NCBI GenBank assembly: GCA_004297205.1
Contig: SCUL01000001.1
Location: 29,862 to 93,861, forward strand
Direction: 5' to 3'
Length of the DNA: 64,000 bases
DNA from: Patescibacteria group bacterium
GTDB taxonomy: Bacteria; Patescibacteriota; Patescibacteriia; 2-12-FULL-57-11
The notes under the pieces were generated by a model, which saw only the letters and a list, made by a program, of their open reading frames with translations, was not told where the DNA came from and searched no databases. Positions 6,334 through 19,361 of the stretch are shown piece by piece. Positions within the stretch are counted from its first letter, which is position 1; each line of letters begins with the position of its first letter. The translations under genes and the position numbers were made by a program.

Positions 6334-7122
6334 TCAGGGACACATGGGCGGCGCGCCGCCCTTCACGATTTCGCATTCCGAGAACAGCACGAAGTCGAAC
6401 AGGCCGGACAGCGTGGTCACGGTCGGCGCCACCACCTGGCTGGCTTGCCGCGTGCCAGCGTACTCCCCGGTGGAGACGATCGCCACCCGGTCCGGGAAGG
6501 CCGCGGGAGCGCCGCCGGCGTCGATGGCGTCGATGCGCACGTTCACGGCGTCGCACCGTTCGGCTTTGAGGCGGACGCGCGCCGCATTCGCGCCCGGATT
6601 GGAAAGCACGTAGGTGACCGGGCCGTCGTTGGCGTAGCGGAACTTGGTGATGCTCGGCGTCCAACCCACGCCCGGCTCGAACGTCACCGACGAAATCTCG
6701 ATCACCGACGCGGCGCCGCAGGCGGCGTCCCAGTCGATGACGAGCTGGGCCACGCCGCCGGAGGGCGGGGTCGCGGCCGGATCATACAGCACCAATTCGT
6801 AGACGCCGTCCTTGGCGATGGTCGTGAAGATGGGCGCCGGCTCCCGCACGATCTCGCGGGCGTACGATGCGCCGTTGTCGAGCTCGGCCCCGGCGGCCAG
6901 GGCGCCCGGACTGGTCCCGAGCTTGCGGATCTCGTAGAGCGCCCGCTCGTTGCCGGACTCGGCGGCGTAGGCGGCCACCTGCGAGGCGTCGGCGGAACGG
7001 GCGGCCCGAATCTCCCGCAGCACCAAGGTGCCGACGGCCATGCCGCCGAGCAGGATGGAGCTCATGGCGAACAGCGCCAGGAGCAGGACGTTTCCCCGAG
7101 GCGGGCGGAGGCTAGCGGACAT
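6334..7122 (-). CDS. PilX-like minor-pilin/pilus assembly protein (N-terminal TM anchor)
   Basis: N-terminus [33 protein letters not shown]... followed by a Cys-containing periplasmic domain. Located in the pilus operon directly after the pseudopilins. No canonical G-F-T-x-E motif. Confidence 0.5.
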
Positions 7123-7699
7123 ACAGGCGGCTGGCGACGGTAGTCTGGACGCGGACGGACGCGGCCGAGGCGCCGCTGCCGGAGCGCAAGGCGAGCACGA
7201 CGGTCACCGACGGCTGCGGCACGACCGAGCCGGGCGGCGAGACGAACGGGTCGGTGATCGGATTGACGACGACCATGAACTGCTCGACGACCGCGCCTTC
7301 CGGAGTCAGCGAGGCCGTTTCCCCGTTTTCCTCGACGAGCAGGCAGGGGCTCGATCCCGTCGGACAGCCGCTCTCCGACCGGCGGAAGGAAAACGTGCCG
7401 CCGCCGGACGCCGACAGGAACAGCCGCGTGTCGGTCAACCCGAGCGGGCCGCCTTCGGCCGGATCGGCGTACCGGGCATAGTCGATGCTCCCCCGCCGGA
7501 CGCCGCGGGCCATCTGTTCGACGGCCACGCGCGCCGTCGCCGCCAGCTCCTCGCGGCCCAGCACCTTGCGCTCGGCGCGGTTGGCGATCAGGAACATGTC
7601 GGTCACGGCGACCATGGCCGTGGAAAAAATCGCCACGACCACCAGCACCTCCATCAAGGTAAAGCCGGCACGACCCTTTTGTTCCTTACCTCCAGTCAT
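7112..7699 (-). CDS. Type IV pseudopilin (prepilin-type N-terminal cleavage/methylation domain)
   Basis: MTGGKEQKGRAG|FTLMEVLVVVAIF: leader ends in Gly, mature residue F1, Glu at +5. Confidence 0.75.
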   Translation of the reverse strand: MTGGKEQKGRAGFTLMEVLVVVAIFSTAMVAVTDMFLIANRAERKVLGREELAATARVAVEQMARGVRRGSIDYARYADPAEGGPLGLTDTRLFLSASGGGTFSFRRSESGCPTGSSPCLLVEENGETASLTPEGAVVEQFMVVVNPITDPFVSPPGSVVPQPSVTVVLALRSGSGASAASVRVQTTVASRLYVR

Positions 7700-8309
7700 A
7701 TAATTCGCCTTGCATTTCCAAACGATGGCCGCGGCCGGACACGGTCCAGGTGACGAGGACGCGCACGTCGGTGCCTACTTCGACCTGGCCGCCCGGACAG
7801 GCCGTGCCGTCGACCGAGGCGATCGTCGCCGCGTCGCCCTCCACCATGCAGATCGGCCGCAGCGTCAGCAGGCGGCGGAACGGCGACTCCACGGCGCCGG
7901 CCGGCGGCGCGCCGTCGTACTGGCGCAGCGAGCCGTCGGGGTCCTCGTAGACCACGGCGTCGGCGTCGCTGATCCCGGCGGCCGTAAAGTCGATCCGCCA
8001 ATCTTTTTCCGGCATGAAAAACGGCACGCCGGTGCGGTCGCCGCCGGGACCGACCAGCGCCGTGTTCCAGGGAACGGCGGCCAGCCAGTTGCCGTCGCGG
8101 ATGACGCGGGACGCCTCCATGGCTTCGCGGGCCAGACCGGTGGCCACGACGCGCGTCTGGCTTTCGTTGGAGGCGTTGAGCGAACTCGAGACGAGCGACA
8201 GCGTCCCGGCAATGCCGGACACGATGATGCCGAGCGCGATGATCATCTCCAGCATGCCTTGGCCGCGCGGAGGGAGGGGGTCGCGTGTCGCGTGTCGGAA
8301 ACGCGTCAT
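7686..8309 (-). CDS. Type IV pseudopilin, PilV-like (non-canonical +1 residue)
   Basis: ...PPRG|QGMLEMIIALGIIVSG has Glu at +5 relative to a Gly cleavage site, followed by a hydrophobic helix. Confidence 0.6.
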   Translation of the reverse strand: MTRFRHATRDPLPPRGQGMLEMIIALGIIVSGIAGTLSLVSSSLNASNESQTRVVATGLAREAMEASRVIRDGNWLAAVPWNTALVGPGGDRTGVPFFMPEKDWRIDFTAAGISDADAVVYEDPDGSLRQYDGAPPAGAVESPFRRLLTLRPICMVEGDAATIASVDGTACPGGQVEVGTDVRVLVTWTVSGRGHRLEMQGELYDWR

Positions 8310-17310: not shown

Positions 17311-17339
17311 GCGTGGAAGATTCGCCCCGAGTATATCAC

Positions 17340-19361
17340 CTATCGCGGCGCGACGTCTGTGAATTTCGGCAGCGACGACACCACGTCGGCCATGCCCGGT
17401 GGCGGATTGGCCACGGCCCGACCGTCATACGTGATGCGTTCCGCAGGCTCCCCGCCCGCGGACGCGGCGCGTTCGAAGTTGAACTGGCGCGCGATCATCA
17501 AGCCGCCGACCTTCAAATGCTGGGTGCTGCCCGCGCCGGTGTAGACCGTGCCTTCCACGTAGTACGTGCCGACGATCTGGCTGACGCTCGCTTCCGACAG
17601 GCTGACCACGGCCGGCACAAGGACGGCCCCGCCCGCCGCGCGCTTGTCCACCACGATCACGCCGAGGGACGCCAGGTTGCGCAGCGTCCCGCCGGGCGCG
17701 CCCGCAGCGTAGCTCAGGTCGGCGTTGATGCTGAGTTTGCCTTCCACGAGGATGAGTCCGGCGCCGCTGCGCGTTCCGGCGGCGTTGCGGAACGCGCGCA
17801 GCGCGTTCACGTCAAGACCGTCCGGGAAGTAATAAACGCGGCCGTCGAGCACGTCCGGCACCTCGTTCCATTCGTCGGGCTGCAGCGTGGTGACGCGGCC
17901 GTAGGCGCCGCGCTTGATCCCGGCGATGTCGAGGCGGCCGAGCGGGCTGGCGTAGTTGGAAGATGCCGTCGGCAGCAGGAAGTCCTCGGGGTTCGGCACC
18001 GGGTCGCAGCCGGCCGTGCCGGAACCAGCCGCACCGCTCTGCACGACGAAGTTGACCGGCGCTCCTCCGCCGGCGGACACCAGGCAGAAGGTGGCGTTGG
18101 CCTGACCGGCGGGCGGCGGGTTCTCGGCGCGAATGCCGCGGCGCGAGTAAATATCCTCGAACAGCGCCTGCAGCCATGGCGTGTAGACCGGCTCGCAAAA
18201 CGTGGGGTTGCCGTCGCCGTCGACCGGACACTGGTTGGGATCGGCCGTCGGCATGCAGCGCAGCGCGTTGTCCACCTGGCAGATGCCCGGGCACCACGGC
18301 GCGCAGGAGGAGTCGAGGCAGTCGATGTCGCCGTCGACGTCGTTGTCGTTCACGTCGGAACAGGCCACCTGCTCCAGGCCGGCGCCGAAGACGAAGGCTT
18401 CTTCGTTTGCACAGACGCCGACGCCCAGACAATCCGTGTCCGCGCAGTCCACGCCGGAGGTCGGCTGGTCGTCGTAGTTGCCGAAGCCGTTGTCGACGTC
18501 GTTGTCCACGCCGTCGTCGCAGACGAGTTCCGTCGAGGGGCAGCCGTAAGCATCCTGATGCCAGCAGGTGTCGTTGTCGGCATCCAGCAGGTTGTCGGCG
18601 CAGTCGGTCCGGCCGTCGCCGTCGTTGTCGTTGGTGTCCGTGCACTCGGCCGGGGACGATTCGGGGCCGCAGGTGACGCCGCCCGGACCGGCCACGCCCA
18701 GGCAGTCGGTGTCCGCGCAGTCGACGCGGCCGTCCAGGTCGTTGTCGAGGCCGTCGGCGCAGAGCGTCTCGTTGGTCACGAGCGTGGCCGTGGAAAAATC
18801 GATCCAGCCGACGCCGGTGCCGTCGTCGTTGCCGTTCCAGGCGAACCCGGTGACCGTGCCGGTCCCCAGATTCATGGTCACGAAGTACTCGCCGCAACCG
18901 ACCGGTCCGCTGTTGTCGCAGTTCAGGGACACCCAACCGCGGCCCTTGAGCGACGGGATGTAGGCCCAGCCATGCACCTCATAATCGGCCGCCACCCAGG
19001 CGTAGACGCTGCCTCCGGGTTGCGTCGGCGCCGAGGCGTACGGGTTGCAGGTCTGACCGAAGCACATCCACCCCACGTTCTTGGACCAGGCCCAGCCCTT
19101 GATGCTGTAGCCGGTGGCGCCGCCGTACTGCCCGCTCACGGTATCCGCGATGTCCACGCCGTACTCCGGCGGACAGCCGCCGCCGGTGACGCAGTTCACG
19201 GAAAACCAGCCGACGCGCTCGCTCCACAACCACCCGCGCAGCCGGTCGCCGTCCGAGGCTCCCGCAGTCGACGCAAAAACCGCCGTGCCGAGCAGCACGA
19301 GGGTGCACGCCAACAATGCGGTGCGCCATGTCCTCCGCATGGCATCAGTATACCACGTCAA
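17340..19361 (-). CDS. Secreted 673-aa repeat protein: N-terminal aromatic GW...N.GW..F repeats plus Asp/Cys-rich calcium-binding-like repeats
   Basis: Signal peptide [28 protein letters not shown]. Four GWxWSxxVGWxxxNC-type repeats and four D-x-D-N-D-x-D-G-x-x-D-C-A-D-x-D-C units (MopE/TSP3-like). First gene of the pilus operon. Confidence 0.7.

What the first reader, a model, noticed from the sequence alone, without database searches (positions are those of the whole stretch)
6334..19361. Complete, translationally coupled type IV pilus super-operon headed by an unusual secreted repeat protein
Thirteen co-directional genes (minus strand) sit in one stretch. Most junctions are ATGA stop/start overlaps or gaps of less than 15 nt. 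Gene order is repeat protein, pilM, pilN, pilO, small Pro-rich protein, pilB, orphan CheY-like receiver, pilC, two pilins, pilD, three pseudopilins and a PilX-like protein. There is no pilQ secretin, pilT/pilU retraction ATPase or pilP lipoprotein in the locus, consistent with a Gram-positive-like or CPR-type envelope. This is a self-contained pilus assembly module whose first gene has no obvious characterised counterpart.
Basis: partly seen in the sequence, partly recalled or inferred. Interest (0 to 1): 0.6.

Follow-up and report, generated by a model that had tools for sequence, protein, structure and literature searches.

The report
Patescibacterial pilus locus with conserved lead protein
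This is an ordinary secretin-less type IV pilus gene cluster of an ultra-small (Patescibacteria/CPR) bacterium, but its first gene belongs to a large, unnamed family of secreted modular proteins that sits at the head of the pilus genes in every related genome examined, which makes it a candidate for the pilus's host-binding or envelope component.

Summary
Window 6334-19361 (minus strand) carries 15 genes, not 13: g1, pilM, pilN, pilO, a small Pro-rich membrane protein, pilB, a CheY receiver, pilC, two pilins, pilD, three minor pilins and an E5-less fourth one. No PilQ, PilT or PilP was found anywhere in the 64 kb.

The organism is a high-GC Patescibacterium. Secretin-less, co-localised T4P genes are already described for this group (Méheust 2019), so the machine itself is ordinary.

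It is not one translationally coupled transcript. Nine of 14 junctions are tight. The other five span 29-62 nt. Four of them carry an extended -10 box (TGnTATAMT; 10 in the window against 0.06 expected, all upstream of genes), two carry terminator-like hairpins, and a fifth box precedes g1.

The first gene (666 aa) has a Sec signal peptide, four Trp-rich hairpin repeats, acidic double-disulfide repeats and a conserved C-terminal ~280-aa predicted beta-solenoid. The solenoid weakly resembles ice-binding proteins and the Thermus pilus-tip protein ComZ. This C-terminal domain defines a Pfam-less family with hundreds of cluster representatives. In 35 of 35 informative species genomes it lies upstream of pilM.

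Best reading, by inference: a pilus-associated adhesin or envelope component.

The parts
19761..21515 (-). recJ (flank; conserved upstream neighbour)
   Evidence: Pfam DHH, DHHA1 and RecJ_OB. Present upstream in 27 of 39 related loci.
19358..19771 (-). RNase H (flank). Overlaps recJ by 11 nt and ends 17 nt before the g1 ATG.
   Evidence: Pfam RNase_H and RVT_3. Junctions.
19347..19355 (-). Extended -10 box TGGTATACT, 6 nt upstream of the g1 ATG. Predicts a leaderless g1 mRNA.
   Evidence: The same box sits upstream of the g1 homologue in L009, L003, L016 and L045.
17340..19340 (-). g1: 666-aa secreted modular protein, founding member here of a pilus-linked family.
   Evidence: No Pfam hit. 15 full-length homologues at 33-85% identity. 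Alignment A1. Synteny.
19257..19340 (-). g1 residues 1-28: Sec-type signal peptide ([28 protein letters not shown]|SD).
   Evidence: Read from the sequence: positively charged n-region, 17-aa hydrophobic core, A-G-A before the predicted cut. Heuristic only; no SignalP was available.
18771..19244 (-). g1 residues ~33-190: four Trp-rich hairpin repeats (GWxWSxxxGWxSxN[C]).
   Evidence: Motif positions 36, 82, 124 and 165. Invariant W/G columns in A1. AF2 pLDDT 70-87, all-beta. Conserved in 34 of 39 related loci.
18291..18761 (-). g1 residues ~194-350: acidic double-disulfide repeats (CxDGxDNDxDGxxDCxDxDC) with DxDxDG calcium-loop-like motifs.
   Evidence: NCBIfam NF033662, 66.1 bits against a cutoff of 41. 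PDB profile hit to the teneurin C-rich domain, 2e-4. Low pLDDT. This region is replaced by other modules in relatives.
17343..18179 (-). g1 residues 388-666: conserved C-terminal domain (PWLQ..Y..IYS ... [16 protein letters not shown]), predicted beta-solenoid.
   Evidence: Profile positions 372-650 match the C-terminus of hundreds of proteins. AF2 model pLDDT 82, pTM 0.83. Foldseek hits to FfIBP 4nu2 (E 6e-3) and ComZ 6qvi_B (probability 0.99).
17330..17338 (-). Extended -10 box TGATATACT, 19 nt upstream of the pilM ATG.
   Evidence: Conserved in L001, L009, L010, L003, L032 and L036.
16249..17310 (-). pilM (actin-like ATPase-fold cytoplasmic ring protein).
   Evidence: PilM_2 1.8e-39. TIGR01175 at 151.8 bits, above the 133 cutoff.
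16236..16244 (-). Extended -10 box TGCTATACT upstream of pilN.
15167..16207 (-). pilN-like protein, 346 aa: N-terminal ISLLP (PilM-binding-type) motif, a ~140-aa Pro-rich linker, a TM segment at ~167-197, and a C-terminal PilN domain.
   Evidence: Pfam PilN 0.0016, below the gathering score. TM and proline content. Positional orthologues in 33 of 39 loci. A TTG start at 16222 is also possible.
14558..15151 (-). pilO
   Evidence: Pfam PilO at 24.7 bits, above the gathering score of 22. TM at ~26-52.
14191..14556 (-). Small N-terminally anchored Pro-rich protein (121 aa), coupled to pilO (1-nt gap) and to pilB (1-nt overlap).
   Evidence: No Pfam or NCBIfam hit. TM at residues ~2-34, 17% Pro. 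Detectable only in close relatives.
12431..14191 (-). pilB extension ATPase with an MshEN N-terminal domain.
   Evidence: T2SSE 3.4e-124 and MshEN 1.4e-17. Best NCBIfam model is TIGR02538 PilB at 541.8 bits, below its cutoff, with GspE at 532.
12032..12421 (-). Single-domain CheY-type receiver with the canonical D14/D15, D57, T87 and K109.
   Evidence: Response_reg 2.4e-23. Residues read from the sequence. Found between pilB and pilC in at least 27 related loci.
10821..12026 (-). pilC platform protein.
   Evidence: T2SSF, two copies, 8.6e-53. GspF and PilC models at 340 and 321 bits.
10802..10810 (-). Extended -10 box TGCTATAAT, 43 nt upstream of pilA1, followed by a GAAGGAGG Shine-Dalgarno sequence.
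   Evidence: A box at this position is present in 15 of the 18 relatives checked.
10291..10758 (-). pilA1, probable major pilin (G|FTLIELLVV).
   Evidence: N_methyl 3.6e-9 and T2SSG 4.5e-5. Motif. It has its own promoter plus an SD sequence.
10260..10281 (-). Hairpin CCACCCCG-CCGAGA-CGGGGTGG followed by CTTTCG. Terminator or attenuator-like, downstream of pilA1.
   Evidence: Read from the intergenic sequence. Not picked up by the consensus scan.
9748..10245 (-). pilA2, second pilin (G|FTLIELLVV).
   Evidence: N_methyl 9.7e-7..
9714..9740 (-). Hairpin GCGTCCCGG-CACAA-CCGGGGCGC plus TTTT: terminator-like, after pilA2.
   Evidence: Read from the intergenic sequence.
9706..9714 (-). Extended -10 box TGGTATACT, 6 nt upstream of the pilD ATG (leaderless).
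8908..9699 (-). pilD prepilin peptidase.
   Evidence: A24_N_bact 1.4e-26 and Peptidase_A24 7.7e-10.
8306..8911 (-). Minor pilin 1 (G|FTLIELLVS), GspH-like. ATGA overlap with pilD.
   Evidence: GspH 3.3e-7, below cutoff.
7686..8309 (-). Minor pilin 2, with a non-canonical leader (RG|QGMLEMIIAL gives Glu at +5). ATGA overlap with minor pilin 1.
   Evidence: PilV TIGR02523 2.8e-5, below cutoff. TM at residues 16-44.
7112..7699 (-). Minor pilin 3 (G|FTLMEVLVV).
   Evidence: N_methyl 4.3e-7. GspI and GspJ weak hits.
6334..7122 (-). Fourth, Glu5-less N-terminally anchored protein, in the GspK/PilX-type position.
   Evidence: No HMM hit. TM at residues 10-35. The assignment rests on position and on the known lack of Glu5 in GspK/PilX.
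4250..6331 (-). ligA (flank), starting 2 nt after the last pilus gene.
   Evidence: Pfam DNA_ligase_aden, OB, ZBD, HHH and BRCT. Junction.

Best explanation
The locus encodes the secretin-less type IVa-like pilus machine of a Patescibacteria (CPR) bacterium.

Shown by HMMs and motifs:
- The cytoplasmic and membrane core is PilM, PilN, PilO, the PilB ATPase, the PilC platform and the PilD prepilin peptidase.
- This core would assemble two major-type pilins onto a priming set of four minor pilins, three with a class III leader and one without Glu5.
- A canonical single-domain CheY receiver is encoded between pilB and pilC.

Inferred from sequence signals (conserved extended -10 boxes, spacing and hairpins), expression comes from several promoters rather than one transcript:
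- g1 alone, leaderless;
- pilM;
- pilN-pilO-small-pilB-cheY-pilC, which are translationally coupled;
- pilA1 with a strong SD sequence and an attenuating hairpin, then pilA2 with a terminator-like hairpin;
- pilD plus the four minor pilins plus ligA, leaderless and coupled.

Shown for the first gene, g1: it is a Sec-secreted protein with a conserved core and a swappable module. The core is an N-terminal Trp-repeat beta domain and a C-terminal ~280-aa beta-solenoid domain. The swappable module here is a set of Ca-loop-like acidic double-disulfide repeats. In relatives it is a LamG lectin, DUF2341 or other Cys-rich modules. Its linkage to pilM across the clade is also shown.

Inferred for g1: it is an extracellular partner of this pilus, most likely an adhesin or host-recognition subunit. 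Its conserved domains would dock on the conserved pilus parts (the minor-pilin tip complex or the cell-wall exit site), while the variable module would bind the target. It would then be a functional analogue of PilY1 or ComZ, not a homologue of either. No physical association with the pilus has been demonstrated.
For: T4P identity.

Taxon: (Patescibacteria, Ca. Uhrbacteria and Parcubacteria record titles).

This kind of locus is known in CPR: PMC6744442 and PMC11623550.

Promoters:
- TGNTATAMT occurs 10 times against 0.06 expected. All copies are on the coding strand, upstream of genes.
- The positions are conserved in relatives, with essentially none on the opposite strand (one copy among the 18 loci checked).
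- The ATG lies 6-8 nt after the box for g1, pilD, gatC and a GT4 gene.

g1 family:
- 659 representative clusters at E<1e-30.
- The C-terminal domain lies at the protein C-terminus in the 25 members fetched, and the match reaches the C-terminal end in the listed hits. Protein lengths range from 386 to 1887 aa.
- The variable modules are LamG, DUF2341 and DUF4215 or NF033662 repeats.

Linkage:
- All five metagenomic relatives checked show recJ-rnhA-g1-pilM....
- In a scan of one genome per species, 35 of 35 informative loci carry pilM downstream of the g1 C-domain gene, 32 of them within 350 nt.
- In L026 and L031 the upstream synteny is broken (ClpB instead of recJ-rnhA), yet the g1-family gene still heads the pil run. 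L026 also has a type I signal peptidase between g1 and pilM.

Fold:
- The C-domain model has pLDDT 82 and pTM 0.83.
- Its best PDB matches are triangular beta-solenoids: FfIBP 4nu2 (E 6e-3, probability 0.96) and the pilus-tip protein ComZ 6qvi_B (probability 0.99).
- The closest fold to ComZ's own solenoid is also FfIBP (PMC6561018).
Against: - There is no direct evidence that g1 touches the pilus.
- Gene order in this clade is generally rigid. The functionally unrelated recJ-rnhA pair is nearly as well conserved upstream, so adjacency alone is weak evidence.
- g1 has its own promoter and is not translationally coupled to pilM.
- g1 lies at the opposite end of the locus from the minor pilins. 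PilY1 and ComZ are encoded next to minor pilins.
- g1 has no pilin-like N-terminus and no PilY1 domain.
- The fold matches are statistically weak: all E>0.001, TM 0.3-0.46, and RMSD of 6-13 A.
- The genome scan used one peptide pattern ([YF]DGRA[VLI]ANP), so it sampled only part of the family. The context of most of the 659 representatives was not examined.
- The promoter and leaderless calls are sequence inference, without transcript data.
Confidence: 0.5

Rival explanations
1. g1 is a general secreted surface or host-interaction protein (a lectin or Ca-binding adhesin) with no physical or functional tie to the pilus. It lies next to pilM only because gene order in this stretch of Patescibacteria chromosomes is frozen.
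For: - recJ-rnhA, which has no known pilus role, is conserved just upstream in 27-29 of 39 loci. ligA follows the last pilus gene after 2 nt. Tight conserved synteny therefore extends to unrelated genes.
- g1 has its own -10 box and is separated from pilM by another promoter.
- Modular LamG or Cys-repeat architectures are typical of free-standing adhesins.
Against: - Where the recJ-rnhA synteny is broken (L026, L031), the g1-family gene still heads the pil gene run.
- All 35 informative loci keep it upstream of pilM, with g1 C-domain identity as low as 31-41%.
- Only one copy is present in the 64-kb window.
- Conservation of both terminal domains alongside a swappable module suggests docking to a conserved partner.
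Confidence: 0.25
2. g1 is an envelope component of the machine rather than an adhesin. It would be a cell-wall or S-layer-embedded exit collar or anchor that guides the fibre through the monoderm envelope, taking the structural role that PilQ/TsaP/PilP play in diderms. The Trp repeats would bind wall polymers and the beta-solenoid would contact PilN/PilO ectodomains.
For: - g1 sits immediately upstream of pilM-pilN-pilO, the alignment subcomplex genes, not next to the minor pilins.
- No secretin or PilP exists in the window.
- Trp/Gly-rich hairpin repeats recall wall-binding repeats of Gram-positive surface proteins. This is from my own knowledge and was not tested.
Against: - An exit collar would be expected to have an invariant architecture. 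The family instead shows large, variable lectin-like or Cys-rich insertions and sizes from 386 to 1887 aa, which is more typical of target-binding proteins.
- The W-repeat domain hits no wall-binding Pfam family.
- Monoderm T4P systems (Clostridia, Streptococcus) function without any such component, as far as I know.
Confidence: 0.15
3. The whole locus is primarily a DNA-uptake (competence) pseudopilus rather than an adhesive or motility pilus. g1 would be its extracellular DNA or ligand receptor, analogous to the ComZ beta-solenoid.
For: - No PilT is present in the locus or the window.
- The locus is embedded between DNA-processing genes recJ and rnhA upstream and ligA downstream, with coupling-type junctions.
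- The g1 C-domain has a weak structural match to the DNA-binding tip protein ComZ (PMC6561018).
- CPR lack nucleotide synthesis and are naturally competent (PMC11623550).
Against: - ComG-type models score far below PilB/PilC models, and PilMNO are present.
- The relative L026 carries a PilT-family ATPase inside the same cluster, which argues for a retractile pilus in the family.
- The ComZ match is weak and belongs to a generic fold class.
- In TM7x the T4P-2 pilin mutants tested were not competence-deficient.
- The acidic g1 repeats (61 Asp) are not obviously DNA-binding.
Confidence: 0.1

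Closest known systems
Type IV pilus clusters of CPR/Patescibacteria (Méheust et al. 2019, PMC6744442; Nanosynbacter lyticus TM7x T4P-1/T4P-2, Grossman et al. 2024, PMC11623550)
   Same: PilB, PilC, PilM, PilN, PilO, PilD and pilins are co-localised. There is no PilQ, which fits the monoderm-like envelope. The machinery is well conserved and the pilins are poorly conserved.
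   Different: Neither paper, as far as I read them, describes a conserved secreted protein heading the cluster or a receiver domain between pilB and pilC. The candidate adhesins in TM7x (PilX1 and PilX2) are pilin-fold proteins with C-terminal lectin-like domains. g1 has no pilin domain. TM7x locus 1 contains pilT and this window does not.
PilY1 (Pseudomonas, Myxococcus, Neisseria PilC) pilus-tip adhesins
   Same: Sec-secreted non-pilin protein with a conserved C-terminal domain and a variable N-terminal or central region. Calcium-binding motifs are present. It is genetically tied to a T4aP system that has four minor pilins.
   Different: No PilY1 beta-propeller domain was detected by Pfam. 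The g1 C-domain is predicted to be a beta-solenoid. g1 is encoded next to pilM, not within the minor-pilin operon.
ComZ of Thermus thermophilus (PDB 6QVI; PMC6561018)
   Same: It is a large triangular beta-solenoid of the ice-binding-protein fold class attached to a T4P system, proposed to be tip-located. Foldseek probability is 0.99.
   Different: In ComZ the solenoid is inserted into a GspK-like pilin fold with an N-terminal hydrophobic helix. g1 has a cleavable-type signal peptide and no pilin fold. The match is weak (E 0.036, TM 0.30, 13% identity), so homology is not established.
DUF3494 / ice-binding-protein fold (e.g. FfIBP, PDB 4NU2)
   Same: This is the best structural match of the g1 C-terminal domain (E 6e-3, probability 0.96, TMt 0.40).
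   Different: There is no sequence match to the Pfam family, the RMSD is about 10 A, and the sequence motifs differ (PWLQ...YDGRAxANPPPG). An ice-binding function is not implied.
Gram-positive (Clostridium, Streptococcus sanguinis) type IV pili
   Same: Secretin-less T4P with PilM/N/O, PilB, PilC, PilD and several pilins encoded in one cluster.
   Different: Those clusters usually include PilT and, to my knowledge, have no g1-like lead gene and no embedded CheY receiver.
PilG/PilH (Pil-Chp) and cyanobacterial PilG/PixG single-domain response regulators
   Same: A stand-alone CheY-type receiver genetically tied to T4P. The canonical phospho-acceptor residues are present.
   Different: Here the receiver is encoded inside the structural operon, between pilB and pilC. 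No chemosensory (CheA-type) kinase or any histidine kinase was found in the 64-kb window.

Membership tests
Type IVa-like pilus (Tff superfamily) assembly system | PilB-type hexameric extension ATPase (T2SSE domain, N-terminal MshEN/GSPII domain) | tested here: met
   T2SSE 3.4e-124 and MshEN 1.4e-17. The best NCBIfam model is TIGR02538 PilB at 541.8 bits, though this is below its equivalog cutoff of 675.
Type IVa-like pilus (Tff superfamily) assembly system | PilC/GspF polytopic platform protein with two T2SSF domains | tested here: met
   T2SSF, two stretches, 8.6e-53.
Type IVa-like pilus (Tff superfamily) assembly system | PilM-PilN-PilO alignment subcomplex, which distinguishes T4aP from T2SS (GspL/M) and from ComG | tested here: met
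   PilM TIGR01175 at 151.8 bits, above the 133 cutoff. PilO at 24.7 bits, above the gathering score of 22. PilN is only 0.0016, below the gathering score, but has the ISLLP N-terminus, a single TM and the conserved position.
Type IVa-like pilus (Tff superfamily) assembly system | Prepilin peptidase plus substrates with a class III signal peptide (G|F/M-x-x-x-E) | tested here: met
   PilD has A24_N_bact and Peptidase_A24. Four ORFs carry G|FTL(I/M)E, and one more has a non-canonical leader.
Type IVa-like pilus (Tff superfamily) assembly system | PilT/PilU retraction ATPase | tested here: not met
   There is no second T2SSE protein in any frame of the 64-kb window. The rest of the genome could not be tested. 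The relative L026 has a PilT-family gene between cheY and pilC.
Type IVa-like pilus (Tff superfamily) assembly system | PilQ secretin and PilP (diderm systems only) | tested here: not met
   No Secretin or PilP hit appears among about 55 ORFs scanned. This is expected for CPR (PMC6744442).
Type II secretion system | GspD secretin, GspC and GspL | tested here: not met
   None was found (the same Pfam scans). The GspE, GspF and GspG models score similarly to or below the T4P models and below their cutoffs.
ComG competence pseudopilus | ComGA/ComGB/ComGC equivalogs, without PilMNO | tested here: not met
   ComGA scores 243.9 bits against PilB at 541.8. ComGB scores 117 against PilC at 321. ComGC scores 32.8. 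All are below their cutoffs, and PilMNO are present.
PilY1 / Neisseria PilC tip adhesin | C-terminal PilY1 beta-propeller domain (Pfam Neisseria_PilC) | tested here: not met
   g1 has no Pfam hit at E<=0.01. The predicted C-domain is a beta-solenoid.
ComZ-type modular tip pilin | GspK-like pilin fold with an N-terminal hydrophobic helix carrying an inserted beta-solenoid | tested here: not met
   The solenoid-class match is weak. g1 has a Sec-type signal peptide and no pilin domain or N_methyl motif.
Ice-binding-like DUF3494 family | Sequence membership in the Pfam family, and a triangular beta-helix with a flanking helix | tested here: inconclusive
Acidic double-disulfide repeat proteins (NCBIfam NF033662) | Tandem ~32-aa repeats, each with four Cys and acidic DxDxDG-like loops | tested here: met
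   66.1 bits against a cutoff of 41, in three stretches. Motifs are at residues 194 and 327. This covers only the middle third of g1.
g1 family (unnamed; defined here) | Signal peptide or anchor, Trp-hairpin repeat domain, and a C-terminal PWLQ...YDGRAxANPPPG domain at the protein C-terminus. Encoded upstream of pilM. | tested here: met
   Alignment A1/A2. 659 representatives at E<1e-30. pilM lies downstream in 35 of 35 informative loci.

The most novel reading that the evidence does not exclude
The g1 family would be a previously unrecognised, clade-wide component of the Patescibacteria type IV pilus. It would be a non-pilin, Sec-secreted subunit whose conserved Trp-repeat and beta-solenoid domains mount it on the pilus tip or at the exit site. 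Its swappable middle or N-terminal modules (Ca-binding Cys repeats, LamG lectins, DUF2341) would determine which host cell the epibiont attaches to. On this reading it is the long-sought host-specificity determinant for non-Saccharibacteria CPR lineages, and a PilY1/ComZ analogue that arose independently.
Probability: 0.35. Interest if true: 0.7.

Novelty: new variant of a known kind. Interest (0 to 1): 0.5.

Why it matters
Type IV pili are thought to be the main organ by which CPR/Patescibacteria find and hold their hosts. Outside Saccharibacteria, nothing is known about which protein does the recognising.

This work points to a single protein family that can be located in any genome: no Pfam model, hundreds of 50%-identity clusters, a fixed position at the head of the pilus genes, a conserved docking-type core and interchangeable binding modules. 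That gives a concrete candidate to test by proteomics of sheared pili, cryo-ET, AF3 complex prediction, and correlation of module type with host.

The side observations also matter for annotating and engineering these organisms. They are the sharply over-represented extended -10 box, probable leaderless mRNAs, a receiver domain fixed between pilB and pilC, and a PilN with a ~140-aa proline-rich tether.

If g1 turns out to be unrelated to the pilus, the locus is just a typical CPR T4P cluster.

Tried and rejected
- The search for homologous proteins with the C-domain alone, and then with alignment A2, returned only 3 and 2 hits. The word prefilter was probably swamped by low-complexity words.
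A narrower alignment, A3, worked but restricts sampling to members with [YF]DGRA[VLI]ANP.
- PDB sequence-profile searches gave nothing significant for the C-domain. The best hit was T4 gp5 at E 1.4. For the full-length profile the only hit was the teneurin C-rich repeat.
- The classical sigma-70 two-hexamer scan found no promoters, and the terminator scan found only intragenic matches. The extended -10 motif was found by reading the intergenic sequences.
- T2SS and ComG assignments were considered and rejected (see the membership test).
- A pilin-like nature for g1 was considered and rejected, because it has no class III leader.
- A second g1 copy or a paralogue in the window was looked for and none was found.
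- A histidine kinase partner for the receiver was looked for in the window and none was found.
- Weak Foldseek hits of the full-length model to beta-propellers and PLL lectins (E 0.7-2) were noted for the Trp-repeat domain. They are too weak to use.

Full report
**1. What is in the sequence**

The window is 64 kb at about 65% GC. Between 6334 and 19361 every real gene, judged by GC3 above 0.8, is on the minus strand. After correcting start codons the run holds 15 genes.

| Gene | Coordinates | Size |
|---|---|---|
| g1 | 17340-19340 | 666 aa |
| pilM | 16249-17310 | |
| pilN-like | 15167-16207 | |
| pilO | 14558-15151 | |
| small Pro-rich membrane protein | 14191-14556 | |
| pilB | 12431-14191 | |
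| CheY-type receiver | 12032-12421 | |
| pilC | 10821-12026 | |
| pilA1 | 10291-10758 | |
| pilA2 | 9748-10245 | |
| pilD | 8908-9699 | |
| minor pilin 1 | 8306-8911 | |
| minor pilin 2 | 7686-8309 | |
| minor pilin 3 | 7112-7699 | |
| Glu5-less anchored protein | 6334-7122 | |

HMM support is good for PilM, PilO, PilB, the receiver, PilC, PilD and the prepilin leaders:
- PilM: PilM_2 1.8e-39, and TIGR01175 above its curated cutoff.
- PilO: above the Pfam gathering score.
- PilB: T2SSE 3e-124 plus MshEN.
- Receiver: 2.4e-23.
- PilC: two T2SSF domains.
- PilD and the prepilin leaders also match.

PilN is sub-threshold (0.0016). It does begin with GISLLPEE, which resembles the PilM-binding INLLP-type motif known for the family, and it has a single TM. 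The last gene has no HMM support as 'PilX'. The label rests on its position and on the lack of Glu5, which GspK and PilX also lack according to established knowledge of those families.

**2. Absences**

A six-frame phmmer search with PilB finds no second T2SSE ATPase in the window. Pfam scans of about 55 ORFs across the window find no secretin, PilP, PilT or histidine kinase.

The flanks are:
- upstream: recJ and RNase H;
- downstream: ligA, then gatC and gatA;
- elsewhere in the window: murJ, lepA, murD, murF-like, ftsW, ftsE, ftsX and lon.

**3. Organism and prior knowledge**

The closest g1 homologues, and 39 loci recovered from one-genome-per-species contigs, are titled Patescibacteria, Ca. 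Uhrbacteria or Parcubacteria.

Méheust et al. 2019 (PMC6744442) already reported that PilB/T, PilC, PilM, PilN, PilO, PilD and pilins are enriched and co-localised in CPR genomes, and that PilQ is absent. Grossman et al. 2024 (PMC11623550) dissected two T4P systems in Saccharibacteria. The pilus machine, and its lack of a secretin, are therefore ordinary for this group.

**4. Operon structure**

Junctions fall into three tightly coupled blocks:
- pilN, pilO, the small protein, pilB, cheY and pilC, with gaps of 15, 1, -1, 9 and 5 nt;
- pilD, mp1, mp2, mp3 and the fourth protein, with gaps of -4, -4, -14 and -11 nt, followed by ligA after +2 nt;
- recJ and rnhA, with a gap of -11 nt.

Five junctions inside the locus are 29-62 nt long and are not empty spacers. 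Four of them contain the box TGnTATA(C/A)T. These are the junctions before pilM, pilN, pilA1 and pilD. A fifth box lies 6 nt before the g1 ATG. The remaining long junction, pilA1 to pilA2, carries only a hairpin.

The pattern occurs 10 times in the window against 0.06 expected from shuffles. All copies are on the minus strand, immediately upstream of minus-strand genes. In related loci the same box recurs upstream of pilA1 in most species, and upstream of g1, pilM, pilN and pilD in the closer ones. Only one copy lies on the opposite strand among the 18 loci checked.

For g1, pilD, gatC and a GT4 glycosyltransferase the ATG begins 6-8 nt after the box, which predicts leaderless mRNAs. pilA1 instead has a 43-nt leader with GAAGGAGG.

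Two GC-rich hairpins follow pilA1 (10260-10281) and pilA2 (9714-9740, with a TTTT tract).

The 'single translationally coupled super-operon' is therefore better described as at least five transcription units that share one orientation. This is inference from sequence; no transcript data exist.

**5. The first gene**

g1 has four parts:
- A Sec-type signal peptide, with a predicted cut at AGA|SD.
- Four Trp-rich hairpin units of the form GWxWSxxxGWxSxN, at residues 36-185.
- Acidic four-Cys repeats, at residues 194-350. These match NCBIfam NF033662 at 66 bits against a cutoff of 41, and the teneurin C-rich domain at 2e-4 in a PDB profile search.
- A conserved C-terminal domain, at residues 388-666, that starts PWLQ..Y..IYS and ends [16 protein letters not shown].

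No Pfam family matches.

A profile search of 1.84 billion cluster representatives returns 659 proteins at E<1e-30. In most of the listed hits only the C-terminal domain (profile positions about 372-650) matches. In the listed hits the match reaches the end of the protein, and lengths range from 386 to 1887 aa. Some of the strong hits instead match only the Cys-rich repeats.

The Trp-repeat domain usually precedes the C-terminal domain. The remainder is variable: LamG/ConA-like lectin domains, DUF2341, DUF4215-like or zinc-ribbon-like Cys clusters, or the acidic repeats found here. In six species the core is split into two adjacent genes, an N-domain protein of about 550 aa and a C-domain protein of 1300-1500 aa.

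**6. Linkage to the pilus**

Five metagenomic relatives, at 33-66% identity, all show recJ-rnhA-g1-pilM....

A scan of 185,579 species genomes with the C-domain alignment returned 39 loci. Local phmmer with the window's proteins shows pilM downstream on the same strand in 35 of 35 loci where the contig allows a judgement. In 32 of these it lies within 350 nt. It is usually followed by pilN, pilO, pilB, cheY, pilC, pilin(s) and pilD.

Because recJ-rnhA is conserved almost as well, rigid synteny could explain the adjacency. Two loci argue against that. L026 and L031 have a divergent ClpB gene upstream instead of recJ-rnhA, yet the g1-family gene still heads the co-directional run into pilM. It is separated from pilM by one or two unknown secreted-type ORFs and, in L026, by a type I signal peptidase. 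L026 also carries a PilT-family ATPase between cheY and pilC.

**7. Fold**

The full-length AF2 model is mediocre (pLDDT 66). It is confident for the Trp-repeat domain (70-87) and for the C-domain (80-95).

The C-domain modelled alone with 17 diverse sequences reaches pLDDT 82 and pTM 0.83, and is all-beta. Foldseek against PDB gives no hit below E 0.001. All the top matches belong to one fold class, the triangular beta-solenoid:
- ice-binding proteins, with FfIBP 4nu2 at E 6e-3 and probability 0.96;
- ComZ of Thermus thermophilus, 6qvi_B, at E 0.036 and probability 0.99.

ComZ is a competence-pilus tip protein, and the closest fold to its own solenoid is also FfIBP (PMC6561018). This is a lead, not evidence of homology. 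TM-scores are 0.3-0.46, and g1 lacks ComZ's pilin fold.

**8. Interpretation**

Shown:
- the T4aP-like gene set;
- its Patescibacterial origin;
- the family, architecture and modularity of g1;
- the conserved position of g1 ahead of pilM;
- the promoter-like boxes and their conservation.

Inferred:
- g1 is exported by Sec;
- g1 acts with the pilus.

The pattern of two conserved terminal domains plus an interchangeable binding-type module is what one expects of an adhesin that docks on a conserved structure. PilY1 (conserved C-domain, variable N-domain, Ca site) and ComZ are functional precedents, but g1 fails the defining tests of both families.

My estimates are:

| Reading of g1 | Probability |
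|---|---|
| Extracellular partner of the pilus, with adhesin or tip association most likely | 0.5 |
| Pilus-independent surface protein | 0.25 |
| Envelope exit or anchor component | 0.15 |
| Locus is chiefly a DNA-uptake pseudopilus with g1 as receptor | 0.1 |

**9. Verdict**

The operon claim is overstated.

The part worth following is the first gene. It belongs to a large, unnamed, pilus-linked protein family, and I found no published description of it in the searchable literature.

Novelty: a new variant of a known kind, meaning a known system with an undescribed conserved accessory component. Interest: 0.5.

Noticed in passing
window 4232-4240, 9706-9714, 10802-10810, 16236-16244, 17330-17338, 19347-19355, 47022-47030, 50384-50392, 58362-58370, 63501-63509 (all minus strand): The extended -10 box TGnTATA(C/A)T occurs 10 times against 0.06 expected. 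It always lies just upstream of a minus-strand gene. No -35 element is evident. For four genes (g1, pilD, gatC, GT4 glycosyltransferase) the ATG starts 6-8 nt after the box, implying leaderless mRNAs.
   Followed up: partly
window 15167-16207 (-): PilN has an unusually long (~140 aa), 15%-proline, low-complexity cytoplasmic tether between the N-terminal ISLLP PilM-binding-type motif and the TM segment. Canonical PilN has only about 20 residues there. Relatives have PilN of 230-400 aa, so the tether length varies.
   Followed up: partly
window 12032-12421 (-); L001-L046: A single-domain CheY receiver with intact D/D/D/T/K residues is fixed between pilB and pilC in at least 27 related species. 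No histidine kinase or CheA was seen in the 64-kb window. Its partner and target are unknown.
   Followed up: partly
window 19358-21515 and 4250-6331 (-): DNA-processing genes bracket the pilus locus with operon-like spacing: recJ and RNase H upstream, NAD-ligase downstream. recJ-rnhA upstream is conserved in most relatives. This is a possible link to DNA uptake, or simply frozen gene order.
   Followed up: partly
L026:18418-19578 (+) and L026:11999-12604 (+): In one related lineage a PilT/PilU-family ATPase (TIGR01420, 268 bits) is inserted between cheY and pilC, and a type I signal peptidase lies between the g1-family gene and pilM.
   Followed up: yes
L022, L035, L036, L037, L038, L042: The g1 core is split into two adjacent genes: a protein of about 550 aa carrying the Trp-repeat N-domain, and a protein of 1300-1500 aa ending in the C-domain.
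   Followed up: no
window 42539-47017 (-), with tRNA-Gln at 47092-47165: A giant (~1490 aa) surface protein with fn3, GDSL lipase and purple-acid-phosphatase N domains lies partly within a markedly lower-GC patch (GC 0.51-0.59 against 0.65 for the window), next to a tRNA gene. This may be horizontally acquired.
   Followed up: no
window 28880-30178 (-): Another secreted-type protein carries thrombospondin type-3 (Ca-binding) repeats and a PKD domain. It lies next to murJ and overlaps it in the stop-to-stop frame.
   Followed up: no
L010-L012, L019, L021, L023, L026, L031, L033, L034, L041, L045, L046; L039: Many MAG records carrying this clearly Patescibacterial locus are titled 'uncultured Gammaproteobacteria bacterium', and one (L039) is titled Vicinamibacterales. 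These are probably placeholder or mis-binned taxonomy in the public records.
   Followed up: no
window 14191-14556 (-): The small anchored Pro-rich protein is sandwiched between pilO and pilB (1-nt gap, then 1-nt overlap). It is recognisable by sequence only in close relatives. More distant loci keep an unassigned gap of roughly 40-450 nt (most often 300-450 nt) at the same place, so a fast-evolving positional orthologue may exist there.
   Followed up: no
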